The notes under the pieces: generated by a model
The model's database searches: none
The model's input: the letters and a program-made list of their open reading frames with translations, nothing else
What the model was told of the DNA's origin: nothing
NCBI GenBank assembly: GCA_020052895.1
Contig: JAGVOE010000048.1
Location: 1 to 39,466, forward strand
Origin: Candidatus Woesebacteria bacterium
GTDB taxonomy: Bacteria; Patescibacteriota; Microgenomatia; UBA1400; MFAQ01
DNA length: 39,466 nucleotides
Reading direction: 5' to 3'
Part shown: positions 23,930 through 38,031 of the stretch, in pieces
Layout of the letters: every line of letters starts with the position of its first letter
Numbering within the stretch: position 1 is the first letter of the stretch
Program-made: the position numbers and the translations under genes

Positions 23930-26353
23930 ATGCCTATGGAGAGTTATAATTTTCGAGAAGTAGAAAAGAAGTGGATAGAAAAGTTTGATAATCTTGATGG
24001 CTATAAGGGGAAAGACTTTGACACCCGAGAAAAGAAATATGTGTTGGTTGAGTTTCCTTATCCCTCGGGGGAAGGGCTGCATGTGGGGCATGCTTTTTCG
24101 ATGACGGGAGCCGATGTTTACGCTCGTTTTATGAGAATGATAGGCTTTAATGTCTTGTTTCCCATGGGCTGGGACGCCTTTGGCTTGCCGGCCGAAAACT
24201 ATGCCATCAAGACCGGTATTCAGCCGCAAGTAACAACAGATAGAATTACCAAGTTGTTTAAGGAGCAGATGAGGCGGATGGCTTTTTCCTTTGATTGGGA
24301 GCGCGAGATAAATACTACTTTGCCGGAGTACTACAAGTGGACTCAGTGGATTTTTACCAAACTTTTTGAGAAAGGCTTGGCCCACAAAGAAGAGATGCCG
24401 ATTAATTGGTGTCCTTCATGCAAGATTGGTCTGGCCAATGAAGAGGTGGTGGACGGAGACTGTGAGAGATGTGGGGCGATTACGGAAAAAAGAAATATTT
24501 CACAGTGGGTGGTGAAGATTACCGAGTACGCTGATCGCTTGATCGAAGGGCTAAAAGACACTGATTTTATCGAGAAGGTAAAAGCGGCTCAGGTGAACTG
24601 GATAGACCGGAAAGAGGGGATAAATATAAGGTTTAAAATTGTCTTGGATCCAGAAATCCCTCTCGGCTGCGCCGCCTCTCCCTTTGACAAGGAAGACTTT
24701 TTAGAGGTGTTTACGACTAGACCGGATACTTTGGAGGGAGTAGAGTTTTTGGTGGTGGCGCCGGGGCACAAACTAGCGCAAGAACTCAAGGAATCAAGAA
24801 CTCAAGAACTCAAGATTTTGAGTGACTATTTGGAAGAGTATGACAAGAGAGACTTAAAGGATAGAAGTGAGAGGCAAAAGACGGGAGTACTTTTGCCAAT
24901 TAAAGTGATTAATCCGTTAAATAATAGAGAAGTGCCGGTGTATGTAGCCGATTATGTTTCGATGGATTTTGGGACCGGGGCTATTATGGGAGTACCTTCG
25001 ACAGACGCTCGAGATGCTGACTTTGCTAAGGTGATGAGAATCAACTTTGAACCGACATTGGTGCCAAACGCGGGTCTGTGGGGTGAAGCAGTTAATAAGG
25101 GTTGGGGTAGGAAAAAAATTTCCTACCATCTAAGAGATTGGATTTTTTCACGACAACATTACTGGGGAGAACCAATACCAATGGTGTGGTGCGAAAAATG
25201 TGCTCTCCATGGCGGACAAGGTTGGGTACCGGTGCCAGAAGAGCAGCTACCAGTAGTATTACCAGATATAGAAAAATATCAGCCGACAGATACAGGGGAG
25301 TCGCCACTAGCCAACATTAAAGACTGGGTAGAGACGAAGTGTCCGAAATGCGGTGGAAAGGCCAGACGAGAAACGGATACGATGCCAAACTGGGCGGGGA
25401 GCGACTGGTACTTTTTGCGTTACTGTGATTCTAAAAACGACAAGAAACTGGCTGAGGTGGATAAAATGAAGTATTGGCTGCCAGTAGATGTTTATATAGG
25501 TGGAGACGAACACAACACCTTACATCTGCTTTATAGTCGATTTATTTATCAGTTCTTGTACGACTTAGGAGTAGTGCCGACGGAGGTTCCCGAGCCGTAT
25601 AAAAAACGTCTTTCTCATGGAGTAATCTTGGCACCGGATGGAAAACGGATGAGTAAGAGTAAGGGAAATGTGATTGCGCCAGAAGCAATGACAGATAAGT
25701 ATGGGACGGATGTGGTGCGAATGTACATGATGTTTATGGGGCCGTTTGATGCCACGATGGCTTGGAACGAGAGATCTCTTATTGGAGTAAGTCGTTTCTT
25801 AGAAAGGTTCTATAAATTGGTGACGGAAAATATTGGCAAGAACTCGAGAACTCGAGAACTCAAGAACTCAAGACAAGATGTAGAGGGGAAAAGATTAATA
25901 AATAAATTAATTAAGAGTGCGGGTGAGGACTTGGAAGTTTTTAAATTCAATACAGTTATTGCGAAACTGATGGAAACGACTAACGGCTTGAGTAAATTGA
26001 CCGGAACAATTGCTAATGATGATCTAAGACTCCTCATCAAAGTGATAGCGCCTTTCGCCCCATTTGTGTCTCAGGAGCTATGGGTCGCTTTGGGTGGGAG
26101 TGGCAGTGTCCACGCTGAACAGTTTCCTAGACTGGATGAAAAATATCTGTATGCCAGTGGGGTGACTTTGGCAGTGCAGGTAAATGGTAAATTGAGAGGC
26201 ACAGTAGTAATTGATGTGGAAGCCACAGAAGAAATGGCGATCACAGAGGCCAAAAAGATGGATAAAATCGCTAAGTACTTGAGCGATGGAGAAATAAAGA
26301 AAGTGATTTTTATCAGGGGTAAGGTTTTGAATTTTGTGGTGAATAGGGAGTAA
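23930..26353 (+). CDS. leuS: leucyl-tRNA synthetase (start 23930 or, more likely, 23936)
   Basis: YPSGEGLHVGHAF (HIGH), KMSKSKGN and TTRPDT plus the CP1 region. It carries two in-frame octamer-repeat insertions. Confidence 0.9.
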   Translation: MPMESYNFREVEKKWIEKFDNLDGYKGKDFDTREKKYVLVEFPYPSGEGLHVGHAFSMTGADVYARFMRMIGFNVLFPMGWDAFGLPAENYAIKTGIQPQVTTDRITKLFKEQMRRMAFSFDWEREINTTLPEYYKWTQWIFTKLFEKGLAHKEEMPINWCPSCKIGLANEEVVDGDCERCGAITEKRNISQWVVKITEYADRLIEGLKDTDFIEKVKAAQVNWIDRKEGINIRFKIVLDPEIPLGCAASPFDKEDFLEVFTTRPDTLEGVEFLVVAPGHKLAQELKESRTQELKILSDYLEEYDKRDLKDRSERQKTGVLLPIKVINPLNNREVPVYVADYVSMDFGTGAIMGVPSTDARDADFAKVMRINFEPTLVPNAGLWGEAVNKGWGRKKISYHLRDWIFSRQHYWGEPIPMVWCEKCALHGGQGWVPVPEEQLPVVLPDIEKYQPTDTGESPLANIKDWVETKCPKCGGKARRETDTMPNWAGSDWYFLRYCDSKNDKKLAEVDKMKYWLPVDVYIGGDEHNTLHLLYSRFIYQFLYDLGVVPTEVPEPYKKRLSHGVILAPDGKRMSKSKGNVIAPEAMTDKYGTDVVRMYMMFMGPFDATMAWNERSLIGVSRFLERFYKLVTENIGKNSRTRELKNSRQDVEGKRLINKLIKSAGEDLEVFKFNTVIAKLMETTNGLSKLTGTIANDDLRLLIKVIAPFAPFVSQELWVALGGSGSVHAEQFPRLDEKYLYASGVTLAVQVNGKLRGTVVIDVEATEEMAITEAKKMDKIAKYLSDGEIKKVIFIRGKVLNFVVNRE
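24780..24816 (+). repeat. tandem octamer array AAGAACTC/AAGGAATC inside leuS (empty-site form)
   Basis: AAGAACTC AAGGAATC AAGAACTC AAGAACTC AAGAT, translated as QELKESRTQELKI. Confidence 0.9.
25838..25874 (+). repeat. tandem octamer array inside leuS
   Basis: AAGAACTC GAGAACTC GAGAACTC AAGAACTC AAGAC, translated as KNSRTRELKNSRQ. Confidence 0.9.
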
Positions 26354-26371: not shown

Positions 26372-27109
26372 ATGTCAAAAATAAATAAAGATTTTACTAA
26401 GTTCTATACGCCGGTAATGGTGGTACTACTAATAGTAGCCGCCTTTTATCTCGGGAGATTGTCTTCACAAGTAGATGGACTAAAGGGTAACACTGGAGAA
26501 GCTCCGGCAGTGGCCCCCTCAGCGGCGGCCCCAGCGGCTGGTGAAAGAGACTTGAGTGTTGCCAGTTTGAAAGAGAGAGCTAAGAGCCTGGGGTTGGACA
26601 GCGGTCAGTTTGATCAGTGTCTAGACGGTGGGACTATGGCCCAGAGAGTGAGTGACGAACAAAAGGAAGGTGCAGCACTAGGGGTAAGCGGAACACCCTC
26701 TTTTTTGATAAATGGAGTTATGATAGTGGGGGCCCAACCACAGTCTAGTTTTGAGAGTGTTATTGAAGCTGAGCTGAAAGACGGAACGGGGGACAAGGCG
26801 GCAGCGGCTTTGGGAGAGAGTGGAAAACGAGAAAAGCTAAAACTGGCCGACAGCTACGTGACTGGTGAAAAAAATGCCAAAATTAAAATAGTTGAGTTTA
26901 CCGACTTTGAGTGCCCTTTCTGTGAGAGAGCTTTCCCCACTGTGAACGCAATTATGGAGAAATACCAAGGAAAGATTAGTTTGGAGTATAAGAGTTTCCC
27001 TTTATCCTTTCACGCCAGCGCCCAAAAAGCGGCTGAAGCGGCTCTATGTGCCGGAGAACAAGGTAAATTTTGGGAGATGCATGACAATCTGTTTGCTCCA
27101 GCCAACTAA
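26372..27109 (+). CDS. membrane-anchored DsbA-like thiol:disulfide oxidoreductase with apparently permuted domain order
   Basis: An N-terminal TM helix. The CPFC motif sits in IVEFTDFECPFCERAF near the C-terminus, while the GVSGTPSFLINGVMIVG (cis-Pro loop) segment that normally follows it lies upstream. Confidence 0.65.
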   Translation: MSKINKDFTKFYTPVMVVLLIVAAFYLGRLSSQVDGLKGNTGEAPAVAPSAAAPAAGERDLSVASLKERAKSLGLDSGQFDQCLDGGTMAQRVSDEQKEGAALGVSGTPSFLINGVMIVGAQPQSSFESVIEAELKDGTGDKAAAALGESGKREKLKLADSYVTGEKNAKIKIVEFTDFECPFCERAFPTVNAIMEKYQGKISLEYKSFPLSFHASAQKAAEAALCAGEQGKFWEMHDNLFAPAN

Positions 27110-27196: not shown

Positions 27197-28063
27197 ATGG
27201 AAAAAATCGTTTTGATTATGTATCTCTTTCTCTCTCTTGGTGTCAGACCTATCTTGGCAGTGGTCAAGGTCGAGCCAGCTAGTTTGGCTACGGTGTCTGG
27301 TGTGGTAGCAGAAGTCAAAACAGAGAAAGAGGCCGACTTAACGGCTCCTAAGGAAGAACAAAATAGACTGATTAACTTGATGAAGTCTCAGAAAGTAAGC
27401 GGTTGGTGGGTGACCAATTCCTTGAAGCTAGGCATCCGAAAAGCGGTGGCCGACGGAGTCTCACCGAACACTTTGGTTTTGTTGTTCTTGTTTCCTTTGG
27501 TAGCGGCTTTGGTAGCTTTTTCGCGTCAGGTGATAGGGGTAAATGGCTTTGGAATGATTGTGCCAGCTTTGCTGTCGGTGGCTTTTTTATCCACCGGTGG
27601 GCTGGTGGGACTAGTACTACTAGCTTTTATTCTGCTGGCCGCCACCTTGGGAAGGGTAGCCATAAAGAGGATAAAGGTACCTTACTTGCCCAAATTGGCA
27701 ATCCTGCTTTGGCTAGTCTCTATGTCGGTCCTGGGACTACTATTAATGTCTCCCATGATTGGCTTGGAGAGACTGTCGACGGTGGGAATTTTTCCGATCA
27801 TGCTTTTTGTCCTACTGGCCGAGACCTTTATCGAGGCCCAGATTACGAGAAATTTGACGACGGCGATGGGCATGACCCTGGAAACAGTGGTCCTGGCTTT
27901 TATTGCCTACAAAGTGATTAGCAATCCTTGGATCCAAGCAGTGGTACTTCTCCATCCAGAGGTGGCTGTGATTTTGATCTTGAGTATTGATCTGCTGATT
28001 GGGAAGTACAAGGGTCTGCGTTTGTCTGAAATTTGGAGATTTAGAAAATTAGTATCAAGATAA
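27197..28063 (+). CDS. multi-pass (about 7 TM) membrane protein of the type associated with ATP-grasp ligases
   Basis: A signal/anchor, then a run of hydrophobic helices starting at RQVIGVNGFGMIVPALL and ending in IGKYKGLRLSEIWRFRK. I recall this pattern from the 7TM module fused to inactive transglutaminases. Confidence 0.6.
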   Translation: MEKIVLIMYLFLSLGVRPILAVVKVEPASLATVSGVVAEVKTEKEADLTAPKEEQNRLINLMKSQKVSGWWVTNSLKLGIRKAVADGVSPNTLVLLFLFPLVAALVAFSRQVIGVNGFGMIVPALLSVAFLSTGGLVGLVLLAFILLAATLGRVAIKRIKVPYLPKLAILLWLVSMSVLGLLLMSPMIGLERLSTVGIFPIMLFVLLAETFIEAQITRNLTTAMGMTLETVVLAFIAYKVISNPWIQAVVLLHPEVAVILILSIDLLIGKYKGLRLSEIWRFRKLVSR

Positions 28064-29368
28064 ATGCCTAGACTGTCTGACATATTAGGTCTTAACGCCA
28101 GATCGTCTGACTATCTGAGTCTCAATAGAAAAAGAGCTAGAAAAAGAGCTGACGATAAACTGTTGACCAAAAAAATGCTTAAAAAGGCCAAGGTGCCTCA
28201 CCCCAAACTTTTGGGCGTACTGACGGAGGTGGCTCAGGTCAGAGCCTTTAACTGGAGCAAGCTAAAAGATGGCTTTGCCATAAAACCGGTACGAGGATTT
28301 GGAGGTCAAGGAATACTTTTAATAAAGAAACAGACAAAGGAAAAAGACCTTTTTTTGACCGTGGATGGAAAAACAATCGGGGTGGAGGATCTGGTGCTAC
28401 ACAGTCTGGACATTATTGAGGGAAAATTTTCCCACAACAATCTACCCGACAAAGCGATGGTCGAGGAAAGAATCAAGATCCACCCTAAGTTTAAAAAAAT
28501 GGCTGTGGGTGGGGCTCCTGACGTAAGAGTGATAGTTTTTAACAGAGTGCCGGTGATGGCGATGCTTCGACTGCCGACTGAAGAAAGTAATGGGAAAGCC
28601 AACTTACATCAGGGAGCCATCGGTCTGGGAATTGATATGGCGACAGGGATAACGACACACGGAGTGTATAAAAACGGATCGGTAAAATACTTCCCGGACA
28701 CCAATATTAAGGTGAACGGTATAACAGTGCCGTCTTGGAATAAAATTCTCAAAATGTCGGTGGAGACTGAAATTGTCTCGAAGCTAAACTACTTGTCTGT
28801 AGACATGCTAATTGACGAAGACCAAGGGCCGGTAGTACTGGAGCTGAACGATCAGCCCGGTCTTTCGATACAGCTCGCCAACATGGCTGGCCTAAGAAGA
28901 CGACTGGAGAGAGTGGAGGGGCTAGAGGTAGAGGAGCCGGAAAAGGGGGTAAAAATTAGTAAAGCCCTTTTTGCCAGTAAGTTTGCCAATAGAGTCCGAT
29001 TTACCGGAGAAGAAAGACCAGCGATTGGTATATTTGAAAAGGTCAGTGTTAAAAACGGCAAAAAGAAAATGGTAGAGGTGCGAGCTAAGATAGATACAGG
29101 AGCAAAAGGAACCTCTATAGATCAGGCTTTGGCTCTGGAACTAGGTCTTTTGACCCCAGAAAATGTTTTATGGACAAAAAAAGTCAAAAATTCTCTGGGA
29201 TTTGAAGAAAGAACTTTAGTGGCTTTGACCATTAAACTAAAAGGGAAAGTGATTAAGACCCGAGCTAGTTTGACAGAGAGAAAGCACTTGCGGAGACAGC
29301 TATTAATTGGGAGAAGGGATCTGAAAGAGTTTGTGGTAGATCCTGGATTAGTTAAAATAAGAAGATAA
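28064..29368 (+). CDS. ATP-grasp ligase (alpha-L-glutamate-ligase-related type) fused to a C-terminal retropepsin-like (RimB / putative zinc protease family) domain
   Basis: The N-terminus LGLNARSSDYLSLNRKRARKRADDKLLTKKML is typical of this ATP-grasp subfamily. The C-terminus has VEVRAKIDTGAKGTSID with a D-T-G-A motif. Confidence 0.65.
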   Translation: MPRLSDILGLNARSSDYLSLNRKRARKRADDKLLTKKMLKKAKVPHPKLLGVLTEVAQVRAFNWSKLKDGFAIKPVRGFGGQGILLIKKQTKEKDLFLTVDGKTIGVEDLVLHSLDIIEGKFSHNNLPDKAMVEERIKIHPKFKKMAVGGAPDVRVIVFNRVPVMAMLRLPTEESNGKANLHQGAIGLGIDMATGITTHGVYKNGSVKYFPDTNIKVNGITVPSWNKILKMSVETEIVSKLNYLSVDMLIDEDQGPVVLELNDQPGLSIQLANMAGLRRRLERVEGLEVEEPEKGVKISKALFASKFANRVRFTGEERPAIGIFEKVSVKNGKKKMVEVRAKIDTGAKGTSIDQALALELGLLTPENVLWTKKVKNSLGFEERTLVALTIKLKGKVIKTRASLTERKHLRRQLLIGRRDLKEFVVDPGLVKIRR

Positions 29369-30312
29369 TGAAAATAGCCTACTTACACCGACTAACCTTT
29401 GATGAGAGTGAAGCCAGATTCGTTGAGGAAGCCAGGAAGATCGAGATTGATTTGGTGCCAATTAAGTATCGAAAGCTAAAAATGATAGAGGGAAAGATAC
29501 AGTTTGGAGAGTGGGACTTGAAAGATTTTGATGGCTGGTACTTACGCTCGGTGGGCTCAGAGCTGGAGTGGAGCAAACTGCTGCAGTTTTATGCCAAGAA
29601 ACATGAGGTTCCCTTGGTAGATGAGTATCTGAAAACGGAAGGACCTTTGCGGAGATTCAAGTCGATAATGGGGTGGCAACTGGAGGAGGCGGGGGTATCT
29701 TATCCCAAGACGGCTTACGTTGAGAATCTTAAAGATCTAGAGAAAGAGCTAAAGACCTGGAAATTACCGGCGGTGGTGAAGCTGTCGGCTGGGGGTAGAC
29801 ATGGTATGGGTACTTTTTGGATAAGAGAGCTGGCTGACCTGGAAAAACTGAAACATATCCTGGAAGCCAGACGAGAGAAGGCCTTGGAAATGAACCAAAA
29901 AAGACCAATTTTTAGAGGATTTTTGCTTCAGGAGTACATAAAAAATGATGGGGATTACCGTGTGATGACGGTGGGGTATAAGTGTATTGGAGGATTTAAG
30001 AGGCAAGTAAAAGAAGAAAAACTGATACTCAACAAAAGCCAGGGTAACTCGGTAGCGGTGAAAGATTTGCCGGCCGAGGTAATCGAGATAGCCGAAAGAG
30101 CAGCTCGGGTTCTGGAGGTGGAGGTAGCGGGAACAGACATTATTCGAAATTTGGAAACAGGGAAGTTCTACGTTGTCGAAGTAAATGAAGCACCACAGTT
30201 TAAGGTGTTTGAGAGAAGAACCAAGATTAACGCGGCCAGAAAGATATTGGAATTTTGTAGGACAAAATTCCAAAAGAACTCAAGAACTCAAAAACTCAAA
30301 AACTCAAGATGA
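29368..30312 (+). CDS. RimK-like ATP-grasp ligase (paralogue 2)
   Basis: PAVVKLSAGGRHGMG, LLQEYIKNDGDYRVMTVG and AGTDIIRNLETGKFYVVEVNEAPQF. The C-terminal 13 aa are encoded by an octamer array. Confidence 0.7.
   Translation: MKIAYLHRLTFDESEARFVEEARKIEIDLVPIKYRKLKMIEGKIQFGEWDLKDFDGWYLRSVGSELEWSKLLQFYAKKHEVPLVDEYLKTEGPLRRFKSIMGWQLEEAGVSYPKTAYVENLKDLEKELKTWKLPAVVKLSAGGRHGMGTFWIRELADLEKLKHILEARREKALEMNQKRPIFRGFLLQEYIKNDGDYRVMTVGYKCIGGFKRQVKEEKLILNKSQGNSVAVKDLPAEVIEIAERAARVLEVEVAGTDIIRNLETGKFYVVEVNEAPQFKVFERRTKINAARKILEFCRTKFQKNSRTQKLKNSR
30274..30310 (+). repeat. tandem octamer array forming the 3' end of a CDS and the following start codon
   Basis: AAGAACTC AAGAACTC AAAAACTC AAAAACTC AAGAT. 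The terminal AAGATGA provides the ATG of the next gene and the TGA of this one. Confidence 0.9.
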
Positions 30313-31298
30313 TGAAAGTACTGATACTAACACGATTTAGGGGGGAGTATGAGCCCAGGCGACTGGCTGAGGAGGCGGTAGAACTAGGGTATAAGGTAGA
30401 CAAAGTTAACTATGAACATGTTCGTTTGGGGGTTAGTCGATTGGGGAAGCCAATTGTTGATCTAGGGACCGGCCGGAAACTGGAAGAGTATGACTTAATC
30501 GTACCAAGGGCGGCGACCAAGAGGGGTGGTCCTAGCATGCTGGGGGTGAAGTCGGTGATTTTGGAGTATATTGAAAATAAAAGAACTCAAGAACTCAAGG
30601 CCATGCCTGCCGGCAGGCAGGAATCAAGAACTCGAGACAGTAACAGTGAAAGAAAAAGTGTAAAGGTGATAAACGGAGAGAGCTTTAAGCACTTTCCTCT
30701 GATGGGTAAACTGGAGCAAGGAGTGCTCCTGGCGCAGGCCGGTCTGCCGGTGATTCCTTTTACTTCGTTTAATGGGGTGAGGGGGTGGAAGAGATACTTG
30801 GAAATATTAAATAAACGGAAAAAAGAGTTTGTGCCGGTGATGGTAAAGGCGAGGTTTGGGTCTCATGGTAAAAATGTCAAGCTGGCCGAGTCCTTAACAA
30901 AGCTAAACAAGCTAGCGATAAAGTATAGCGAAGGCGACGTGCTGATTCAGCCAGTGCTAAAAGTGCGGAGATGGTACCGAGTGCTGATTTTGAACGGAAA
31001 GGTGTTGGGGACGATGAAACACCGACAAAAAGACAGATTCCAGGTGCTGGCTCACCAGGAAGAGCTAGCCAAGATCAAACCTAGGTTCTCTAAAGATCAA
31101 ATGAAGGAACTAGAAAAATTGAGTCTAGAGGCGGTGAGAGTTTTGAAAGCAGACTTTGCCGGACTGGATGTAGCTTGGGATGAAGAGAGTGGACAGTGGC
31201 GAATCTTGGAAGTAAATCGAACGGCTCAGTTTAAGTGGTTTGAAAAGGCTTTTCCGGAGGTGAACGTGGCGGAAAGAATAGTGAGGGTCGATGGCTAG
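30309..31298 (+). CDS. RimK-like ATP-grasp ligase (paralogue 3)
   Basis: PVMVKARFGSHGKNV, VLIQPVLKVRRWYRVLILNG and AGLDVAWDEESGQWRILEVNRTAQF. It carries an in-frame composite repeat. Confidence 0.7.
   Translation: MMKVLILTRFRGEYEPRRLAEEAVELGYKVDKVNYEHVRLGVSRLGKPIVDLGTGRKLEEYDLIVPRAATKRGGPSMLGVKSVILEYIENKRTQELKAMPAGRQESRTRDSNSERKSVKVINGESFKHFPLMGKLEQGVLLAQAGLPVIPFTSFNGVRGWKRYLEILNKRKKEFVPVMVKARFGSHGKNVKLAESLTKLNKLAIKYSEGDVLIQPVLKVRRWYRVLILNGKVLGTMKHRQKDRFQVLAHQEELAKIKPRFSKDQMKELEKLSLEAVRVLKADFAGLDVAWDEESGQWRILEVNRTAQFKWFEKAFPEVNVAERIVRVDG
30581..30638 (+). repeat. composite element: octamer array with a nested 21-nt insertion (16-nt palindrome core; filled-site form)
   Basis: AAGAACTC AAGAACTC AAGG [CCATGCCTGCCGGCAGGCAGG] AATC AAGAACTC GAGAC, translated as RTQELKAMPAGRQESRTRD. 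Confidence 0.9.
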
Positions 31299-32535
31299 AG
31301 TAGCGGTAGGATTGTCTGGAGGGGTAGATAGTGCGGTCTGCACTTTACTTTTGAAAAAGGCGGGGTATGACGTGACAGGGGTGCACCTTTACTGTTGGCC
31401 ACCTAAGAGTGAAATAGAAAAGGACAGACTGACTCGTGCAGAATGGTTTAAGAAAAATGGCTGTCGGGCGGACGAAGACAGAGCTAGTGCTTTGAAGATA
31501 GCTTTGGAGATAGGAATTCCTTTTAAGGAACTGGACTTTTCTGAAGAGTACAACAGTAAGGTAATTAAATATTTTTATGATGAATATGAAGCGGGGCGAA
31601 CTCCAAACCCGGATGTCTTATGTAATAGTGAGATAAAGTTCGGCCTTTTCCTTGATTGGGCTATGAAAAATGGTTTTGATTATATCGCGACGGGGCACTA
31701 CGCGAAACTTCTTTCCGTTTCGAGCCGCGCCAAAACCGTACTCGGACCTCCCGCAAAAGCGGGTTCCCGCCTCCGTTCGGTTTTAGCTAGCGCCTCTGTA
31801 GCGGACGAAGTTTCGTTAAATATTCCGAAGGATAAACACAAGGATCAGACGTATTTTTTGTGGAAATTGACGCAGAAAGAATTGGCTCATGTACTGTTTC
31901 CTTTGGGGGACTTATTAAAAAGTAAGGTGAGAGAAATTGCCAGGGAGGCAGGGCTATCGGTGGCAGACAAAAAAGATAGTCAGGGGATTTGCTTTGTCGG
32001 TAACGTGGAAGTCAGAGAGTTTTTGACCAGAAGACTAAAAGTGAAAACAGGTAAAGTAATGGATATTGAGGGAAATGAGATAGGGATGCACGACGGGGTT
32101 TGGTTTTATACCGTGGGGCAAAGAGGAGGGTGGATTCTGGATCCAAGAACTCAAGAACTCAAGAACTCAAGAACTCAAGACGGGGAGACACCGATATATT
32201 ACGTAATTTCTAAGGATGCCAAGACAAATACTTTGGTAGTGGGTGAAGCCAACGAGGCAGTCAAAGACCTCTTTGAGTTGAAAGAAACGAGCTGGATCAG
32301 TGACACAGTGCCACGGTTTTACGGTGACATGTTTGTGCGAATCCGGCATGGAGGCGAACTTCTAAGGGCAAGAACTCAAGGCCATGCCTGCCGGCAGGCA
32401 GGAATCAAGAACTCAAGAAATCAAGATGGGATACATGTAGTGCTAGATAAGGCAGTGAGGGGGATTGCCAGTGGTCAAAGTGCGGTTTTTTACGATGGAG
32501 AGGGTGAGTGCCTGGGCGGTGGAGTGATCCAATAA
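31291..32535 (+). CDS. mnmA: tRNA-specific 2-thiouridylase
   Basis: VAVGLSGGVDSAV (PP-loop), ATGHYA, KDQTYFL, DSQGICF and GQSAVFYDG. It carries three in-frame insertions. It overlaps the upstream ligase by 8 nt. Confidence 0.9.
   Translation: MARVAVGLSGGVDSAVCTLLLKKAGYDVTGVHLYCWPPKSEIEKDRLTRAEWFKKNGCRADEDRASALKIALEIGIPFKELDFSEEYNSKVIKYFYDEYEAGRTPNPDVLCNSEIKFGLFLDWAMKNGFDYIATGHYAKLLSVSSRAKTVLGPPAKAGSRLRSVLASASVADEVSLNIPKDKHKDQTYFLWKLTQKELAHVLFPLGDLLKSKVREIAREAGLSVADKKDSQGICFVGNVEVREFLTRRLKVKTGKVMDIEGNEIGMHDGVWFYTVGQRGGWILDPRTQELKNSRTQDGETPIYYVISKDAKTNTLVVGEANEAVKDLFELKETSWISDTVPRFYGDMFVRIRHGGELLRARTQGHACRQAGIKNSRNQDGIHVVLDKAVRGIASGQSAVFYDGEGECLGGGVIQ
31703..31815 (+). repeat. GC-rich 113-nt imperfect hairpin element embedded in frame in mnmA
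   Basis: The terminal inverted repeats CGAAACTTC (31703-31711) and GAAGTTTCG (31807-31815) are perfect. Internal pairings include AAAACCG/CGGTTTT and GCGC/GCGC, plus a CCCGC-AAAA-GCGGG hairpin. The element lies where MnmA homologues have a much shorter segment after ATGHYA. Confidence 0.7.
32145..32181 (+). repeat. tandem octamer array (4 perfect AAGAACTC units) inside mnmA
   Basis: AAGAACTC x4 followed by AAGAC, translated as RTQELKNSRTQD. Confidence 0.9.
32370..32427 (+). repeat. composite element with nested 21-nt insertion (16-nt palindrome core) inside mnmA (filled-site form)
   Basis: AAGAACTC AAGG [CCATGCCTGCCGGCAGGCAGG] AATC AAGAACTC AAGAAATC AAGAT, translated as RTQGHACRQAGIKNSRNQD. 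Confidence 0.9.
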
Positions 32536-32561
32536 AAAACTCCGCTTGTGGCGGAGTTTTT
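32534..32561. terminator. bidirectional intrinsic terminator between convergent genes
   Basis: AAAAAA-CTCCGC-TTGTG-GCGGAG-TTTTT. Confidence 0.8.
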
Positions 32562-32565: not shown

Positions 32566-33297
32566 TTAGCTTTCAACCTTCACGATCACACAATAGGGTG
32601 GTTTAAGACTCTTTGAGAGCGATGAGACGAAGTTGTCGTAGACCATACCGTTCCCATCGGTACCGCGGCTAACGACCAAGAAAAATTTTTCGTCATCACT
32701 TCTGAACTCTATCTGGGCGATCCGAAGGTCTCTTTCATTCTGAGTGAATATCTTTAGGCCAGTTGGCTTATAACTCTTGGTGATGGAGATGGTTTCTCTG
32801 TTCTGAGAAGCACCATAATCCAGCTTTTTGATGGAGGCGATGAGGTACTCCAAGGCACTGACTTGGTAGTGGTCTGAGCAGACCAAAGATAATCCATCAA
32901 ACCAGAAATCGTCTTTGCCACAAACCGGACAATTTAAGTTTTCTGGTTCTCCCTGAAGGGTGATCTCAAAAGATTCCAAAAAAGCAGGAAAATGCTGACG
33001 CAGAACCTGGATGGCCTTGACTGTTTGCTGAGAAAAGTCCTGTTCAAGGCTGATATATATATTTTGAAGATTACCGGACTGGGAGAAGTTACGACGACCA
33101 ATGTGTTTGCTAAGGGCTTCCTCATAAAGCGAATCAGCTTTTCCTCTGTAACCGCACAAACTGTGGGTGACGAGCCAGGACAGGGTACTTCTGTGCGGAT
33201 CCGGTGAAAGTTGGGCGGTGTATCTGCCGCAACTTGGGCAGTGGATGTCGTGGTAAACATCCGGACGACGGGTGGGTGAAGCTTTTTTAGCGACCAT
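32566..33297 (-). CDS. hypothetical protein with two CxxC zinc-ribbon-like motifs
   Basis: HCPSCGRY...HSLCG and NCPVCGKDD...CSDH. A strong AGGAGG lies 8 nt upstream of the ATG. Confidence 0.55.
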   Translation of the reverse strand: MVAKKASPTRRPDVYHDIHCPSCGRYTAQLSPDPHRSTLSWLVTHSLCGYRGKADSLYEEALSKHIGRRNFSQSGNLQNIYISLEQDFSQQTVKAIQVLRQHFPAFLESFEITLQGEPENLNCPVCGKDDFWFDGLSLVCSDHYQVSALEYLIASIKKLDYGASQNRETISITKSYKPTGLKIFTQNERDLRIAQIEFRSDDEKFFLVVSRGTDGNGMVYDNFVSSLSKSLKPPYCVIVKVES

Positions 33298-34085: not shown

Positions 34086-34336
34086 GACGTAAACTTTTCA
34101 ATTTTTTTTGAGAATTTGATCCTGGTTCAGGACGAACGCTGGCAGTGTACCTTAAGCATGCAAGTCGAACGGACCCACATCGCTCCGTAAGGAGCTATGC
34201 GGGTCAGTGGCAGACGGGTGAGGAAAGACAGGAATCTACCTTTTTGTGGGGAATAGCTAGCCGAAAGGCTAATTAATACCGCATAAGTCCGCAAGGAGAA
34301 AGGCCTTAACTGGCCGCAGAAAGATGAGCCTGTTCG

Positions 34337-34373
<37 letters not shown>

Positions 34374-34947
34374 TATGACGGCTAGGGGGCGTGAGAGCGT
34401 GGCCCCCCACAATGTTACTTAGACACGGAGCATACATCTACGGATGGCAGCAACTGGGAATTTTGCACAATGGACGAAAGTCTGATGCAGTGACACTGCG
34501 TGTGGGATGAAGGCCCTCGGGTCGTAAACCACTGTGATAGGGGAAAAAATTTTGATGGTACCCTATTAGAAAGCGCCTGCTAACTACGTGCCAGAAGCCT
34601 CGGTAATACGTAGGGCGCAAGCGTTGTCCGGATTTATTGGGCGTAAAGAGTATCGTAGGCGGTCTTTTAAGTATCGGGTTAAAGCCTGGGGCTCAACTCC
34701 AGAGATGCTCGGTAAACTACTAGACTAGTGGGTGTTCGGGGTTGCTAGAATTCTTGGTGGAGGAGTGAAATCCATTGATATCAAGAAGAATACCAAAAGC
34801 GAAGGCAGGCAACTAGAACATTCCAGACGCTGATGAACGAAAGCTAGGGGAGCGAAAAGGATTAGAGACCCTTGTAGTCCTAGCCGTAAACAATGAACAC
34901 TAGCTATTTCCCGCAAGGGGAGTGGCGTAAGCTAACGCGTTAAGTGT

Positions 34948-34998
<51 letters not shown>

Positions 34999-35557
34999 AA
35001 ACGCACAATCAGCGTGCCATGTGGTTTAATTGGATACGAAACCTTGAACCTTACCAAGATTTGACATGTAACTGCTAAGTCGCCGAAAGGCGACCTTCTT
35101 CGAGAGTGTTACACAGCTGCTGCATGGTTGTCGTCAGTTCGTGTCGTGAGGCGTCGGCTTAAGTGCCGTAACGAACGCAACCCCTGTGCTATGTTAAATA
35201 TCCATAGCAGACTGCCTCGGTTTTTTCCGCGGAGGAAGGAGGGGATGACGTCAAATCAGCATGGCGCTTATATCTTGGGCTACACACATGGCGTAATGGG
35301 CAATACAACGGGATGCCAAGGCGCGAGCCGGAGCTAATCCTTATAAAGTTGTCCTCAGTTCGGATTGCAGGCTGAAATTCGCCTGCATGAAGGGGAGTTG
35401 ATAGTAATCGCGGATCAGCATCACCGCGGTGAATACGTTCTCGTTTCTTGTACACACTGCCCGTCAAGTCAACAAAGTTAGTAGTGCCCGAAGTAGGTAC
35501 CCACAACCGCAAGGATTGGGCCTCCTAAGGTAAGACTAGCGATGGGGGCTAAGTCGT

Positions 35558-36272
35558 GAATTTGTTGCGACCGCAGAGAGTAATTTCTGTGAAAAATCTC
35601 GCTGTATCGGTGAACCCTAATTATTCGGCATACCTTCGGGTATAATGAATATATGGCAATACCGAGGGAACCTATTAAAGAGTCATCTTTAAATGGACTC
35701 CGTAGAGACTACACGCGAGCGCCACAAATATCGAAAGCTTATATTATCGGTATTCTTCATGACGCCACCGAAAGAAAAACTACTTTTAGAGTTTCACAAA
35801 AGTCTAAAGAGTTTGTCGAAATGGTGGCTAATGGAATTAGAAGTTTGGGTGGAAACGCTTGGACTTATAAAGAAGGAAGTACTCGAAGTGTATATATTGT
35901 CGAATTTTCTAAATCTTTTCTTAAAGGATTTGAAATTCAATCTGAAAAAGATAAACAAGATTACACCAGAGGATACTTTGATACCGATGGGGGAGTCGCA
36001 AAGAGCACAAAAGTTAGGTTTTATATCTATTTTTGTCAGAAGGACTATAAAGATTTGGATCAAGTGAGGAATTATCTGGAAGAAATGAAAATTTCTTGCG
36101 GGATAATCCACAATCCAAGTGTAAAAGTAGATCCTGAATACTGGAGATTTTTTGTAAAAGCAAGATCTTATGTAGATTTTGTACAGAAAATTGGCTCTTG
36201 GCACCCACAAAAAGCTAAATATTTGGGGATGAAGATATAGTCCACGCCCGTAGAAATACGTGGAATACCGCG
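35558..36272 (+). mobile_element. group I intron in 16S rRNA carrying a LAGLIDADG homing endonuclease gene
   Basis: The 5' exon ends in U (AAGUCGU) and the intron ends in G. The internal guide sequence UUGUU-GCGAC (35562-35571) pairs with the 5' exon GUCGU (P1, with a U-G wobble at the splice site) and with the 3' exon AACAA (P10). Confidence 0.8.
35653..36240 (+). CDS. LAGLIDADG-family homing endonuclease (two-motif, single-chain type)
   Basis: AYIIGILHDATE and YTRGYFDTDGGV are the two LAGLIDADG-type motifs. The ORF lies wholly inside the intron. Confidence 0.85.
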   Translation: MAIPREPIKESSLNGLRRDYTRAPQISKAYIIGILHDATERKTTFRVSQKSKEFVEMVANGIRSLGGNAWTYKEGSTRSVYIVEFSKSFLKGFEIQSEKDKQDYTRGYFDTDGGVAKSTKVRFYIYFCQKDYKDLDQVRNYLEEMKISCGIIHNPSVKVDPEYWRFFVKARSYVDFVQKIGSWHPQKAKYLGMKI

Positions 36273-37370: not shown

Positions 37371-37444
37371 GGGCGTTTAGCTCAGTTGGTTAGAGCGCAG
37401 TCCTGATAAGACTGAGGTCTCTGGTTCGATTCCAGAAACGCCCA
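37371..37444 (+). tRNA. tRNA-Ile (anticodon GAU), no encoded CCA
   Basis: A cloverleaf was read by hand: acceptor GGGCGTT/AACGCCC, D arm GCTC/GAGC, anticodon stem CAGTC/GACTG with loop CTGATAA, and T arm TCTGG-TTCGATT-CCAGA. Confidence 0.9.
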
Positions 37445-37509
37445 CAAAACAATTAATGAGGCTAAGGTGGCGGTTGTAAAAGGCCTTGGGTGGATCTAGA
37501 ATTGGGGCC

Positions 37510-38031
37510 ATGAGTAACAAGAAAGAACAGATATTCCTGGTGCCAGTAAAGCCCTCTAGGCAGGAAAACGGCTATGAGTGTGGCTTGTCTTGTGTAATGA
37601 CAATCTTGAATAGTCTGGGTATCAGGCAGAGAAAAGAGGCCTTGAAAAAGAGGCTAGGCACGAGTAGCAAGTCAGGCACCCACCCAGAGCGTATAAAAGG
37701 CTTCCTAAGGGAAACGGGCCTAAAGTATCGGGAAACCCACGGAGGGGCACTAAGCGACCTGGAGAGTAGGCTTAAAAGGCAGAAGCTTTGTCTGGTGGTC
37801 TACCAGGCTTGGGGAAGCCAAAAGTACTACGACCGACTGGAAAGCGGCCATTACTCGGTGGTTTTTGGCTTTGAAAACGAGTATTTGTGGCTGGCGGACC
37901 CTTTTGTAAAGGGTGGCAAGACCAGGTATGGGAAGGGAGTAAGAAAGATCAGGAAGACGGTTTTTGAGAGCCGGTGGAAAGACATGGACCACAAAGGGGT
38001 GACCTATGATCACTGGATGCTGGCAGTATAG
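37510..38031 (+). CDS. papain-like cysteine peptidase, C39-like domain (copy 2; alternative TTG start 37486)
   Basis: QENGYECGLSCVMTILN (Gln/Cys) and SGHYSVVFGFENEYLWLADP (His/Asp). Confidence 0.6.
   Translation: MSNKKEQIFLVPVKPSRQENGYECGLSCVMTILNSLGIRQRKEALKKRLGTSSKSGTHPERIKGFLRETGLKYRETHGGALSDLESRLKRQKLCLVVYQAWGSQKYYDRLESGHYSVVFGFENEYLWLADPFVKGGKTRYGKGVRKIRKTVFESRWKDMDHKGVTYDHWMLAV

What the first reader, a model, noticed from the sequence alone, without database searches (positions are those of the whole stretch)
27197..32535. Translationally coupled 7TM protein plus three ATP-grasp ligases (one fused to a retropepsin-like domain), running into mnmA
Five genes are joined with 0 to 8 nt overlaps (28063/28064, TAATG at 29368, ATGA at 30309, 8 nt at 31291):
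- a 7TM protein of the kind known as a fusion partner of inactive transglutaminases
- an alpha-L-glutamate-ligase-related ATP-grasp fused to a D-T-G-A retropepsin-like (RimB-type) domain
- two RimK-like ATP-grasp paralogues
- mnmA

RimK adds poly-Glu tails to ribosomal protein S6. The 7TM/ATP-grasp pairing was predicted computationally to make or modify peptides, but to my knowledge it has no experimentally defined product.

Three ligases plus a protease-like domain and a membrane component suggest a multi-step peptide or poly-amino-acid tailing system. That would be unusual in a minimal genome. Two of these genes also carry the octamer repeats.
Basis: partly seen in the sequence, partly recalled or inferred. 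Interest (0 to 1): 0.65.

Follow-up and report, generated by a model that had tools for sequence, protein, structure and literature searches.

The report
Membrane-linked peptide ligase–protease gene cluster
A tiny-genome groundwater bacterium (Collierbacteria) carries a tightly packed, very strongly conserved operon that is an undescribed relative of the Pseudomonas Rlo/Rim systems and probably builds and trims an acidic peptide at the cell membrane, though its product is unknown.

Summary
Five + strand genes (27197-32535) are joined by 0 to 8 nt junctions. They encode:
- a 7TM_transglut membrane protein;
- an RloC-type (TIGR02291-like) ATP-grasp ligase fused to a C-terminal D-T-G-A retropepsin domain;
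- two RimK-like ligases;
- mnmA.

The fused domain models confidently as a retropepsin. Its closest solved structures are RloA, RloA2 and Lpg0085. It keeps the Lys/Arg residues that RloA uses to grip poly-glutamate.

ATP and Mg ligands are intact in all three ligases. The third ligase has a remodelled acceptor loop.

Among 80 species-level genomes of Microgenomates (at least 552 matched):
- the 7TM gene sits directly upstream of the fusion in 74 of 74 loci;
- 66 of 73 have at least one RimK-like gene downstream.

mnmA is only a lineage-specific neighbour. The cluster proteins are more conserved than LeuS or MnmA.

Relatives fuse the same ligase to the 7TM protein, to a second ATP-grasp, or to a MATCAP carboxypeptidase (35 of 80 representatives). 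Microgenomates S6 proteins lack acidic tails, which argues against an S6-tailing role.

Best reading: a membrane-docked peptide (probably oligo/poly-alpha-glutamate-like) synthesis, trimming and export module. It is a new variant of the genetically studied but biochemically undefined Rlo/Rim kind.

The parts
27197..28063 (+). 7TM membrane protein (288 aa). It is an RloB-like 7TM module without the inactive-transglutaminase ectodomain. Layout: N-terminal hydrophobic segment (residues 4-22), about 65 aa hydrophilic linker, seven hydrophobic segments (residues 91-268), basic C-terminal tail.
   Evidence: PF14402 at 86 bits (cutoff 25), residues 93-285. NF052267 RloB matches only profile positions 313-506 of 508. 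Hydropathy and conserved E209, Q215, E229, T230, Q247, E255, R110 and R153. The gene is directly upstream of the fusion gene in 74 of 74 loci.
28064..28993 (+). ATP-grasp ligase domain (residues 1-310) of the 434-aa fusion protein. It is of the RloC / alpha-L-glutamate-ligase-like type.
   Evidence: PF14397 at 218 bits. TIGR02291 E 5e-81, 272 bits (cutoff 314). Foldseek top hits are RimK, ArgX/LysX and CphA1. Invariant K32, K74, E134/E135, D153/R155, N180, H182, G184, D247, E260 and N262 align to RimK catalytic positions.
29015..29365 (+). Retropepsin-like (RimB/RloA-type) aspartic peptidase domain, residues 318-434 of the same protein. D-T-G-A lies at 29093-29104 and G-R-R-D at 29309-29320.
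   Evidence: PF05618 at 39.6 bits (cutoff 27). AF2 pLDDT 90.4. Foldseek top hits are 2pma, 9g58 RloA and 9g59 RloA2, then Ddi1 and the EIAV/HIV/HTLV proteases. A profile of the domain against PDB finds only those three bacterial entries. D344, T345, G346, A347, K342, R383, R406 and G416-L420 are invariant or nearly so.
29368..30312 (+). RimK-like ATP-grasp ligase G2 (314 aa). Its last 11 codons are made of the octamer repeat.
   Evidence: PF08443 at 78.7 bits. TIGR00768 at 94.5 bits (below the 143 cutoff). RimK structures E 4e-11. K98, K138, Q188/E189, R198, N222, G226, D257, E271 and N273 are conserved in 82 orthologues.
30309..31298 (+). RimK-like ATP-grasp ligase G3 (329 aa) with a RimK pre-ATP-grasp N-domain. 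It carries a 50-nt repeat-element insertion (residues about 92-110).
   Evidence: PF08443 at 44.8 bits and PF18030 at 32 bits. K134, K180, Q214, R224, D287, E301 and N303 are invariant. RimK E178 is replaced by P215, and the R211/N213/G217-G218 loop is replaced by Q245/L247/E251-E252.
31291..32535 (+). mnmA (tRNA 2-thiouridine-34 synthase). It is translationally coupled here but is a lineage-specific neighbour, not a core component.
   Evidence: NF001138 at 366 bits (cutoff 284). It lies downstream of the cluster mainly in loci at or above 53% identity and in only 1 of about 45 Woesebacteria-type loci.
32536..32561 (.). Hairpin AAAA-CTCCGC-TTGTG-GCGGAG-TTTTT between convergent genes. It is a likely bidirectional terminator that closes the operon.
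   Evidence: Read directly from the sequence printed. The consensus scanner did not list it. My guess at the reason is that the A and T runs can pair and leave no free T tail.
30274..30305 (+). Tandem octamer repeat (AAGAACTC and variants) forming the C-terminal ..KNSRTQKLKNSR of G2. It runs into the G2 stop and G3 start.
30581..30637 (+). Octamer repeat plus a 50-nt composite element with an internal palindrome, inserted in frame in G3. A 98% identical copy lies in mnmA at 32369-32418.

Best explanation
**Core of the system.** The core is a three-part module:
- a 7TM membrane protein;
- an RloC-type ATP-grasp amino-acid ligase that docks by its N-terminus on the cytoplasmic tail of the 7TM protein;
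- a retropepsin-type endopeptidase fused in cis to the ligase.

One to three RimK-like ligases (two here) accompany this core as accessories.

**Proposed working (inferred).**
1. The ligases use ATP to join amino acids, most likely glutamate, through alpha-peptide bonds into an acidic oligo- or polypeptide, or onto a carboxylate acceptor.
2. The fused protease acts as a homodimer, brought together by oligomerisation of the ligase. It cuts the acidic chain to size or releases it, as RimB does for RimK products.
3. The 7TM partner couples the reaction to the membrane and most likely passes the product to the cell surface.
4. G2 looks like a fully competent RimK-type ligase.
5. G3 keeps the ATP/Mg site but has a different acceptor loop. 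It probably handles a different substrate step (priming or capping) or acts as a partner subunit.
6. mnmA is simply co-transcribed.

**Shown here:** domain identities, fold, conserved catalytic and substrate-gripping residues, co-conservation, gene fusions and strong purifying selection.

**Inferred only:** the chemistry (glutamate, alpha linkage), export, and the roles of G2 and G3.
For: **Family and fold**
- The ligase is closest to TIGR02291, the RloC family (5e-81). Its model resembles RimK, ArgX and LysX.
- The C-terminal domain is a confident retropepsin fold. Its nearest structures are RloA, RloA2 and Lpg0085.

**Poly-glutamate-gripping residues**
- RloA residues K46, D48, R114 and R137 coordinate and cleave poly-Glu (PMC12239564).
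- They align with K342, D344, R383 and R406 of the fusion, all invariant in 33 homologues.
- The Arg-to-Arg spacing is the same, 23 residues.

**Cytosolic location of the protease domain**
- The domain has no Cys and no signal peptide, so it is cytosolic like RimB.

**Catalytic residues**
- ATP/Mg ligands are conserved in all three ligases.

**Co-conservation**
- The 7TM gene precedes the fusion in 74 of 74 loci, with a median gap of about 2 nt.
- At least one RimK-like gene lies within 6 kb in 66 of 73 loci, and at least two in 46 of 73.

**Gene fusions in relatives**
- 7TM fused to the ligase in one chain, with the ligase N-terminus about 25 aa after the last TM (P0223, P0237, P0242).
- Ligase-protease fused to a second ATP-grasp (P0138).
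- Ligase-protease fused to a MATCAP carboxypeptidase, in 35 of 80 nearest cluster representatives.
- Locus L086 strings together a PKD-7TM protein, the ligase-protease-MATCAP fusion, three more ATP-grasp genes and a second MATCAP.

**Selection**
- Median identity to the window across 16 genomes is 79% for G1, 75% for G2, 72% for G3 and 73% for RP. The comparison values are 62% for LeuS and 63% for MnmA.

**Genetics in Pseudomonas**
- Loss of RloB or RloC suppresses the defects caused by loss of the periplasmic RloA proteases.
- This fits a cytoplasmic ligase product that reaches the far side of the membrane through the 7TM protein (PMC12239564).
Against: - No product is known for any member of this kind, so glutamate and alpha linkage are extrapolated from RimK, RimB and RloA.
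- The ligase scores below the TIGR02291 trusted cutoff (272 against 314 bits).
- The conserved membrane-embedded residues of the 7TM protein include several glutamates (E209, E229, E255). These are not what one expects in a pore for a polyanion.
- Here the protease is on the cytoplasmic side. In Pseudomonas it is periplasmic, so the logic of the two systems may differ.
- Seven of 73 loci have no RimK-like gene nearby, so G2 and G3 could belong to a separate process.
- Pfam's name for the ligase family (sugar-transfer associated), one YdjC fusion and nearby glycosyltransferases leave room for a glycan-linked acceptor.
Confidence: 0.48

Rival explanations
1. A Rim-type ribosome-modification system. 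[quoted passage not shown] The 7TM protein would be only an anchor or regulator.
For: G2 and G3 match RimK structures and the RimK Pfam domain. The protease domain is RimB/RloA-like and cytosolic. RimB-RimK hybrids are known and active (PMC11957791).
Against: - S6 in two cluster-bearing relatives ends in ..LLIVIE and ..LIVLKF.
- Of 120 Microgenomates-type S6 proteins (89-127 aa), 92 end in a non-acidic residue, 27 in a single D/E and 1 in two. None has an acidic tail.
- No ORF in the window has an acidic C-terminus.
- G2 and G3 score far below the RimK equivalog cutoff (51 and 24 bits against 331).
- The ligase fused to the protease is RloC-type, not RimK-type, and is always paired with a 7TM protein.
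Confidence: 0.1
2. A cell-envelope decoration system. The ligases would attach amino acids or short peptides to a carboxylated glycan, lipid-linked precursor or peptidoglycan stem at the membrane. The 7TM protein would hold or flip the acceptor.
For: - The Pfam family is named sugar-transfer associated ATP-grasp.
- One relative fuses the ligase-protease to a YdjC deacetylase-like domain.
- A TMTC/TPR glycosyltransferase-like gene lies between G3 and mnmA in 12 loci.
- The window holds murA, murB, ddl and a Mur ligase 4 to 10 kb upstream.
- Rlo mutants show cell-shape and beta-lactam phenotypes (PMC12239564).
Against: - The universally fused partner is a peptidase with poly-Glu-gripping residues.
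- The commonest extra fusion is a carboxypeptidase (MATCAP, 35 of 80), which speaks for a peptide substrate.
- No glycosyltransferase or flippase is consistently linked.
- The peptidoglycan genes are separated from the cluster by leuS and a DsbA-like gene.
Confidence: 0.2
3. A sensor-controlled cytoplasmic polymer or osmolyte buffer. The 7TM protein would sense membrane or osmotic state and switch the ligase and protease. Glutamate would then be stored as, or released from, a cytosolic poly-amino acid (cyanophycin-like logic), with no export.
For: - Ligase and protease are both on the cytoplasmic side.
- Foldseek also hits cyanophycin synthetase.
- Rlo is tied to hypo-osmotic tolerance, and glutamate is an osmolyte (PMC12239564).
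- The ectodomain of the 7TM partner varies (none, PKD, inactive transglutaminase), as in receptors.
Against: In Pseudomonas the matching proteases are periplasmic, yet their loss is suppressed by deleting the cytoplasmic ligase. That implies the product crosses the membrane. The conserved polar residues inside the TM helices would fit either a sensor or a conduit.
Confidence: 0.17
4. A ribosomal-peptide (graspetide/microviridin-like) maturation cluster with ATP-grasp cyclases, a leader protease and an exporter.
For: Weak hits of G2 and G3 to the ATP-grasp ribosomal peptide maturase model TIGR04187 (E 1e-4 and 2e-3). PsnB appears among the distant Foldseek hits.
Against: - No conserved small precursor ORF accompanies the cluster.
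- The ligases are RimK/RloC-type.
- The 7TM protein is not an ABC or other known peptide exporter.
- Those scores are far below cutoff (350).
Confidence: 0.03

Closest known systems
Pseudomonas rloABC operon (Lormand et al. 2025, mBio, PMC12239564)
   Same: - It pairs a 7TM_transglut-family membrane protein with a TIGR02291-type ATP-grasp ligase and a D-T-G-A retropepsin-like peptidase of the PF05618 family.
- The peptidase keeps the K/R residues that grip poly-glutamate.
- The product is unknown in both systems.
   Different: - Here the 7TM protein has no inactive-transglutaminase ectodomain.
- The peptidase is not a secreted, disulfide-stapled stand-alone protein. It is fused to the C-terminus of the cytoplasmic ligase.
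- Its flap region is about 27 residues shorter.
- One to three extra RimK-like ligases are attached.
- The host is a CPR bacterium, not a proteobacterium.
RimK-RimB and the RimBK hybrid (Little et al. 2025, JBC, PMC11957791)
   Same: - A cytosolic retropepsin-like endopeptidase is physically coupled to a RimK-superfamily alpha-L-glutamate ligase.
- RimB cuts poly-alpha-glutamate and stimulates its synthesis.
- Fusion proteins exist and are active.
   Different: - In RimBK the protease is N-terminal to a true RimK. Here it is C-terminal to an RloC-type ligase.
- The Rim system has no membrane partner.
- The Rim acceptor is S6 with a Glu-rich end, which Microgenomates S6 lacks.
ATP-grasp / 7TM / peptidase neighbourhoods predicted by Iyer, Abhiman, Burroughs and Aravind 2009 (Mol Biosyst 5:1636). 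I cite this from memory and from the reference list of PMC12096838; the paper itself was not held.
   Same: These are the source of the Pfam families found here (ATPgrasp_ST and 7TM_transglut; DUF1704, now called MATCAP). They carry the general prediction that such clusters make or modify peptides.
   Different: That work is a prediction across families. I found no description of the Microgenomates architecture, of its distribution, or of the protease fused in cis.
Eukaryotic tubulin tail cycle (TTL/TTLL ATP-grasp ligases with MATCAP, vasohibin and CCP peptidases). This comparison is from my own knowledge.
   Same: ATP-grasp ligases that add Glu or Tyr to a C-terminal tail are paired with peptidases that remove them. 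MATCAP-family domains are fused to this ligase in 35 of 80 close relatives.
   Different: The window's own cluster has no MATCAP domain. The acceptor here is unknown. The resemblance is in logic only.

Membership tests
RloABC system | RloC: cytoplasmic ATP-grasp of the alpha-L-glutamate-ligase-like family (TIGR02291) | tested here: inconclusive
   E 4.9e-81 with profile positions 10-308 of 317 covered, but 272 bits against a trusted cutoff of 314. It is clearly the nearest family but falls below the equivalog line.
RloABC system | [quoted passage not shown] | tested here: not met
   Only the 7TM half matches (NF052267 positions 313-506 of 508, 58.7 bits against a cutoff of 900; PF14402 at 86 bits). 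Residues 1-90 are a hydrophobic segment plus a short linker with no domain hit.
RloABC system | RloA: stand-alone secreted retropepsin-like peptidase with a signal peptide and a conserved disulfide | tested here: not met
   The domain is fused after residue about 317 of a ligase that has no TM segment or signal peptide. It has no cysteine. RloA1-3 models score 16-32 bits against cutoffs of 210-280.
RloA/RimB peptidase family (Pfam PF05618) | Retropepsin fold with D-T-G-A, a G-R-(x)-D motif and basic residues lining the substrate channel | tested here: met
   PF05618 at 39.6 bits, above the cutoff of 27. pLDDT 90 model with 2pma, 9g58 and 9g59 as top structural matches. D344-A347, G416-D419, K342, R383 and R406 are invariant.
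RloA/RimB peptidase family (Pfam PF05618) | Homodimer that forms the two-aspartate active site | not testable with these tools
   No multimer prediction was available. Dimerisation is inferred from the family and from RimK-type ligases being oligomers.
RimK (S6 glutamate ligase) / RimBK | RimK equivalog-level similarity | tested here: not met
   NF007764 scores 51 bits (G2) and 24 bits (G3) against a cutoff of 331. TIGR00768 scores 94.5 and 66 bits against 143. Only the Pfam RimK domain cutoff is passed.
RimK (S6 glutamate ligase) / RimBK | Acceptor: ribosomal protein S6 ending in glutamates | tested here: inconclusive
   rpsF is not in the window. S6 in cluster-bearing loci L043 and L046 and in 120 Microgenomates-type S6 proteins has no acidic tail. 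S6 of this exact genome was not obtainable.
RimK (S6 glutamate ligase) / RimBK | Hybrid order: RimB domain N-terminal to RimK | tested here: not met
   Here the peptidase domain is C-terminal and the ligase is RloC-type (PMC11957791).
ATP-grasp amidoligases (catalytically competent) | Two ATP-binding lysines, hinge Glu, Arg of the D-x-R motif, and the Asp/Glu/Asn Mg ligands (E. coli RimK K100, K141, E178, R189, D248, E260, N262) | tested here: met
   - G1: K32, K74, E134/E135, R155, D247, E260, N262, all invariant.
- G2: K98, K138, E189, R198, D257, E271, N273.
- G3: all of these except the hinge Glu, which is P215.

The residue roles are from general ATP-grasp knowledge.
ATP-grasp amidoligases (catalytically competent) | RimK-type acceptor/phosphate loop R-x-N-x-H-x-G-G | tested here: inconclusive
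   - G1: K178-A-N180-L-H182-Q-G184, conserved.
- G2: N222 and G226 are kept, but the Arg position varies (I, R, V or K).
- G3: the loop is replaced by Q245/L247/E251-E252.
Pfam 7TM_transglut (PF14402) | Profile match above the gathering score and adjacency to an ATP-grasp gene | tested here: met
   86 bits against a cutoff of 25. Adjacent to the ligase in 74 of 74 loci. Fused to it in P0223, P0237 and P0242.

The most novel reading that the evidence does not exclude
The Microgenomates cluster is a self-contained, membrane-coupled, non-ribosomal peptide-polymer machine. The 7TM protein, the ligase, the in-cis protease and the helper ligases together would make and export a sized anionic (oligo-alpha-glutamate-like) peptide to the surface of these wall-poor, host-dependent cells.

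The product could serve as an osmotic or charge buffer, or as an attachment polymer.

On this reading the compact CPR form, not the proteobacterial rlo operon, is closer to the ancestral design from which Rlo and Rim diverged.
Probability: 0.22. Interest if true: 0.72.

Novelty: new variant of a known kind. Interest (0 to 1): 0.5.

Why it matters
**Open question in the field.** The 7TM + ATP-grasp + retropepsin combination was predicted long ago. It has recently been shown to matter for stress tolerance, antibiotic resistance and biofilms in Pseudomonas. Nobody yet knows what it makes.

**What this finding adds.**
- The same logic exists in a compact form in at least 552 species of Microgenomates.
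- There it is held under tighter constraint than LeuS or MnmA, although these genomes discard most non-essential genes.
- This contradicts the published picture that the 7TM partner is essentially proteobacterial and that rlo arose from rim within Gammaproteobacteria.

**Why the compact form is useful.**
- It offers a simpler set of proteins for reconstitution: the protease is fused, there is no ectodomain, and there are no redundant proteases.
- The fusion partners found in relatives (7TM, a second ligase, MATCAP carboxypeptidase) give direct, testable hints that the substrate is a peptide tail or chain.

Tried and rejected
**Acceptor and precursor searches**
- rpsF or any ORF with an acidic C-terminus in the window: none found.
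- A conserved small precursor ORF or another universal partner in 83 loci: none found. The only recurring extras are lineage-specific: a SAM methyltransferase between the RimK-like genes in 12 loci, a TMTC/TPR protein in 12 loci, and ribosomal-protein genes downstream in Woesebacteria.
- S6 of Collierbacteria itself. Two database searches returned only Shapiro-, Davies- and Woesebacteria-type S6.

**Other system types**
- Anti-phage defence models (PADLOC): no hit.

**Signals and structure**
- A sigma-70-type promoter upstream of the 7TM gene: nothing on the + strand, and overall fewer sites than in shuffled sequence.
- A whole-protein Foldseek search to see the C-terminal domain: the ATP-grasp hits swamped it. 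I therefore modelled the domain separately.

**Literature**
- Iyer et al. 2009 (PMC3268129) is not held.
- I found no paper linking RimK-type ligases to CPR bacteria, and none defining the RloC product.

**Rejected idea: mnmA belongs to the system.** The link would have been via tRNA-Glu/Gln/Lys. The linkage disappears in Woesebacteria-type loci, and elsewhere it is often interrupted by 1 to 4 kb of other genes.

Full report
**1. The observation**

The window has five consecutive + strand ORFs at exactly the stated coordinates: 27197-28063, 28064-29368, 29368-30312, 30309-31298 and 31291-32535.

Reading the junctions directly gives:
- stop TAA followed immediately by ATG at 28063/28064;
- TAATG at 29368 (1 nt shared);
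- ATGA at 30309-30312 (4 nt shared);
- an 8-nt overlap at 31291-31298.

After mnmA comes the hairpin AAAA-CTCCGC-TTGTG-GCGGAG-TTTTT (32536-32561). Then comes a convergent gene of unknown function (32566-33297, minus strand). So the five genes look like one transcription unit that ends there. A simple sigma-70 consensus scan finds no promoter on the + strand in the 87-nt gap upstream.

The organism is a Collierbacteria-like member of the Microgenomates (CPR). The best named homologue of the fusion protein is from Candidatus Collierbacteria, at 87% identity.

**2. What each gene encodes**

Pfam and NCBIfam scans give the following.

*Protein 1 (288 aa).*
- It matches 7TM_transglut (PF14402, 86 bits, cutoff 25) over residues 93-285.
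- Against NCBIfam's RloB model it matches only the C-terminal 7TM half (positions 313-506 of 508).
- A hydropathy scan shows an N-terminal hydrophobic segment, a hydrophilic linker of about 65 aa, seven hydrophobic segments and a basic C-terminal tail.
- Polar residues inside the helices are conserved in 66 orthologues: E209, Q215, E229, T230, Q247 and E255.

*Protein 2 (434 aa).*
- Over residues 5-303 it is an ATPgrasp_ST (PF14397, 218 bits) and alpha-L-glutamate-ligase-like protein (TIGR02291, E 5e-81, 272 bits against a cutoff of 314).
- Its C-terminal 120 residues hit PF05618 (Zn_protease, now RimB-like; 39.6 bits, cutoff 27).
- They also hit the RloA3 and RimB models weakly.

*Proteins 3 and 4 (G2 and G3).*
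- Both are RimK-domain proteins (78.7 and 44.8 bits).
- G3 also carries the RimK pre-ATP-grasp N-domain.
- Neither reaches any NCBIfam equivalog cutoff (RimK, MptN, LysX, CofF).

*Protein 5.* It is MnmA (366 bits, cutoff 284).

**3. The protease-like domain**

- An AlphaFold2 model of the whole fusion (33-sequence alignment) has mean pLDDT 81, with a low-confidence linker at residues 311-316. Its Foldseek hits are all ATP-grasp enzymes, led by RimK, ArgX/LysX and cyanophycin synthetase.
- Modelled alone, residues 314-434 reach pLDDT 90.4.
- The best PDB matches of that model are Lpg0085 (2pma), P. fluorescens RloA (9g58) and P. aeruginosa RloA2 (9g59). These are followed by the Ddi1 retroviral-protease-like domains and the EIAV, HIV-1 and HTLV-1 proteases.
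- A sequence profile of the domain finds only 9g58, 2pma and 9g59 in the whole PDB (E 4e-6 to 1e-5).
- In 33 homologues, D344 and G346-A347 are invariant and T345 nearly so (a few have D-S-G-A). G416-R-R-D-L420 is invariant.

Lormand et al. showed that RloA cleaves runs of 8 or more glutamates. K46, R114 and R137 coordinate the glutamates, and R114A and R137A abolish function (PMC12239564). Via the 9g58 alignment these residues correspond to K342, R383 and R406 here, all invariant. The Arg-to-Arg spacing is the same, 23 residues.

The intervening flap region is about 27 residues shorter than in RloA.

The domain has no cysteine and no signal peptide. In that respect it resembles cytosolic RimB rather than the periplasmic, disulfide-stapled RloA.

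**4. The ligases' active sites**

I compared the ligases with E. coli RimK. It agrees with the PDB alignments over residues 1-68 and 136-286. The residue roles come from general ATP-grasp knowledge.

| Ligase | Residues at RimK catalytic positions | Conservation |
|---|---|---|
| G1 | K32, K74, E134/E135, D153/R155, K178-x-N180-x-H182-x-G184, D247, E260, N262 | all invariant or nearly so |
| G2 | K98, K138, Q188/E189, R198, N222, G226, D257, E271, N273 | conserved in 82 orthologues; the RimK R211 position varies (I/R/V/K) |
| G3 | K134, K180, Q214, R224, D287, E301, N303 | invariant in 37 orthologues |

G3 differs in two places. The hinge Glu is Pro (P215 in 31 of 37). The R-x-N...G-G loop is replaced by Q245/L247/E251-E252.

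So all three ligases should bind ATP and Mg. G3 probably has a different acceptor, or acts as a partner subunit.

**5. Co-conservation**

- The fusion protein has 5334 database homologues at E below 1e-5. The top 120 are all about 430-460 aa, and most carry both domains.
- A scan of one genome per species found at least 552 encoding loci. The 80 fetched are all Microgenomates-type: Collier-, Woese- and Shapirobacteria. Several records are evidently mislabelled as Pseudomonadales, Gammaproteobacteria or archaea.
- I annotated the loci with the window's proteins:
  - 74 of 74 loci with enough upstream sequence have the 7TM gene directly upstream on the same strand, with a median gap of about 2 nt;
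  - 66 of 73 have at least one RimK-like gene within 6 kb downstream;
  - 59 of 73 have one within 250 nt;
  - 46 of 73 have two or more.
- Called-gene tables from three longer contigs agree.
- mnmA follows the cluster in the Collierbacteria-like clade, sometimes with 4 to 8 nt overlaps and sometimes after 1 to 4 kb of inserted genes. It follows in only one of about 45 Woesebacteria-type loci.
- No other gene family is consistently linked.

Across 16 genomes where all the genes could be compared, median identity to the window is:

| Protein | Median identity to the window |
|---|---|
| G1 | 79% |
| G2 | 75% |
| RP domain | 73% |
| G3 | 72% |
| 7TM | 68% |
| LeuS | 62% |
| MnmA | 63% |
| DsbA-like | 63% |

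The cluster is therefore under stronger constraint than its housekeeping neighbours.

**6. Fusions and larger versions in relatives**

An exhaustive search of 50%-identity cluster representatives found 2081 clusters at E up to 1e-3 and 413 at 1e-30. Pfam scans of representatives show these architectures:
- 7TM_transglut fused N-terminally to the ligase in one chain (P0223, P0237, P0242). The ligase's residue-6 equivalent starts about 25 residues after the last helix.
- Ligase-protease fused to a second ATP-grasp (P0138).
- Ligase-protease fused to a YdjC-like domain (P0126).
- Ligase-protease fused to a MATCAP (formerly DUF1704) metallocarboxypeptidase domain, in 35 of 80 representatives.

Gene neighbourhoods:
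- L086: PKD-PKD-7TM, then ligase-protease-MATCAP, then an ATP-grasp, a RimK-like gene, a second MATCAP and another ATP-grasp.
- L088: 7TM, then ligase-protease-ATP-grasp, with two RimK-like genes and a DUF3541 gene nearby.
- L090: a 7TM-ligase fusion followed by a transglutaminase-core protein, in an archaeal-looking context.

These fusions tie four components into one functional unit: the 7TM protein, the RloC-type ligase, the retropepsin domain and the additional ligases. They also repeatedly add peptidases, which points to a peptide substrate.

They fix the topology as well. The 7TM C-terminus and the ligase are cytoplasmic. The variable N-terminal part of the 7TM protein (short linker here, PKD or inactive transglutaminase elsewhere) is outside the cell.

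**7. The S6 question**

- rpsF is not in the window.
- No window ORF ends in acidic residues.
- By chance, two cluster-bearing loci contain rpsF. Their S6 proteins end in ..LLIVIE (L043) and ..LIVLKF (L046).
- A profile search returned 120 Microgenomates-type S6 proteins of 89-127 aa. Of these, 92 end in a non-acidic residue, 27 in a single D/E and one in two. None has an E. coli-like acidic tail.
- S6 of this exact genome could not be retrieved. The test is therefore indirect, but it argues against a Rim-type S6-tailing role.

**8. Mechanism**

The best-supported reading is a membrane-docked amino-acid ligase module that builds an acidic peptide, most likely alpha-linked glutamate. This is by analogy with RimK and with the poly-Glu specificity of RimB and RloA. 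Within this model:
- the in-cis retropepsin trims or releases the chain;
- the 7TM partner couples the process to the membrane and probably exports the product;
- G2 and G3 contribute further ligation steps.

The Pseudomonas genetics fit a product that crosses the membrane. Loss of the periplasmic RloA proteases is harmful, and deleting the 7TM protein RloB or the cytoplasmic ligase RloC suppresses the harm (PMC12239564).

The chemistry, the export and the roles of G2 and G3 are inferences.

Points against the model:
- the conserved intramembrane glutamates;
- the cytoplasmic position of the protease here;
- the seven loci that lack RimK-like genes;
- hints of a glycan link (the Pfam family name, the YdjC fusion, the TMTC-like neighbours).

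**9. Comparison with known systems, and novelty**

The cluster is neither a strict Rlo operon nor a Rim system.
- Against Rlo: there is no transglutaminase ectodomain, no secreted protease, and the ligase is below the equivalog cutoff.
- Against Rim: there is no RimK equivalog, the fusion order is different, a membrane partner is present, and S6 has no acidic tail.

It combines features of both. The component families and the general idea of peptide synthesis or modification go back to Iyer et al. 2009. I cite that paper from memory and from a reference list, because it was not held.

I found no paper on this architecture in CPR bacteria. I found none defining the product of RloC.

Lormand et al. 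report RloB as 96% proteobacterial and suggest that rlo arose from rim in Gammaproteobacteria. The breadth of the 7TM + ligase pair in Microgenomates does not sit easily with that view.

I rate the finding a new variant of a known kind, of moderate interest. It is not a new principle. It is a widespread, highly constrained and experimentally convenient form of a system whose product is a standing open question.

Noticed in passing
window 24780-24811, 25838-25869, 30274-30305, 30581-30637, 32145-32176, 32369-32422, 38162-38193; related copy at 9331-9352: - A tandem octamer AAGAACTC (3 to 5 units) occurs 17 times as a 16-mer with up to 2 mismatches, against 0.02 expected by chance.
- Every copy is on the + strand and inside a + strand ORF: leuS, G2, G3, mnmA and ORF 38082-38900. 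It is read as ..RTQELKNSR..
- A 50-nt composite element (octamers flanking the palindrome GCCTGCCGGCAGGC) is present in G3 and mnmA at 98% identity.
- Homologue P0077 of the fusion protein has an MPTGRQGS insertion. It resembles the AMPAGRQ peptide that the composite element encodes in G3.
- The pattern looks like a small mobile or slippage-prone element that inserts in frame into coding genes. The Rickettsia palindromic elements behave in a similar way.
   Followed up: partly
window 26372-27109 (+): In the DsbA-like protein upstream of the cluster, the Pfam matches are in swapped order. Residues 65-131 match the C-terminal end of the DSBA profile (positions 124-190 of 191). Residues 161-241, which include a CPFC motif, match the N-terminal part of Thioredoxin_4 (positions 5-87). 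The fold may be circularly permuted or rearranged. The gene is conserved next to leuS in relatives.
   Followed up: no
window 34104-35590, 35653-36240, 37371-37445: A complete 16S rRNA gene lies 1.5 kb downstream of mnmA. It is followed by an ORF with a LAGLIDADG homing-endonuclease domain and then by tRNA-Ile(GAT). The endonuclease therefore sits in the 16S-tRNA spacer region.
   Followed up: partly
loci L008, L011, L013 and others (record titles): Many third-party-assembled MAG records that carry this CPR cluster are titled 'uncultured Pseudomonadales' or 'Gammaproteobacteria', and a few 'Woesearchaeota', 'Bathyarchaeia' or 'Spirochaetia'. Their gene content and 60-82% identity to Collierbacteria proteins say they are Microgenomates. 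Taxon labels in that collection should not be trusted.
   Followed up: no
L043 and L046; proteins P0275-P0394: Ribosomal protein S6 in Microgenomates is minimal, mostly 89-99 aa. It ends right after the last strand with no acidic C-terminal extension.
   Followed up: yes
window 16577-23108: A block of cell-wall genes lies 4 to 10 kb upstream of the cluster: murB, murA, ddl and a Mur ligase on the minus strand. It is interleaved with a C39-like peptidase (18976-19596) and a histone-deacetylase-family protein (20757-21695). A second C39-like peptidase lies at 37486-38031.
   Followed up: no
L061 10172-10831 and 11 other Woesebacteria-type loci: A SAM-dependent methyltransferase-like gene (motif VLDIGCGFG) is inserted between the two RimK-like genes in 12 loci. 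It is a possible lineage-specific accessory of the system.
   Followed up: no
window 32566-33297 (-): The convergent 243-aa ORF has two CxxC pairs and no family assignment. The only matches are sub-threshold hits to small zinc-binding models.
   Followed up: no
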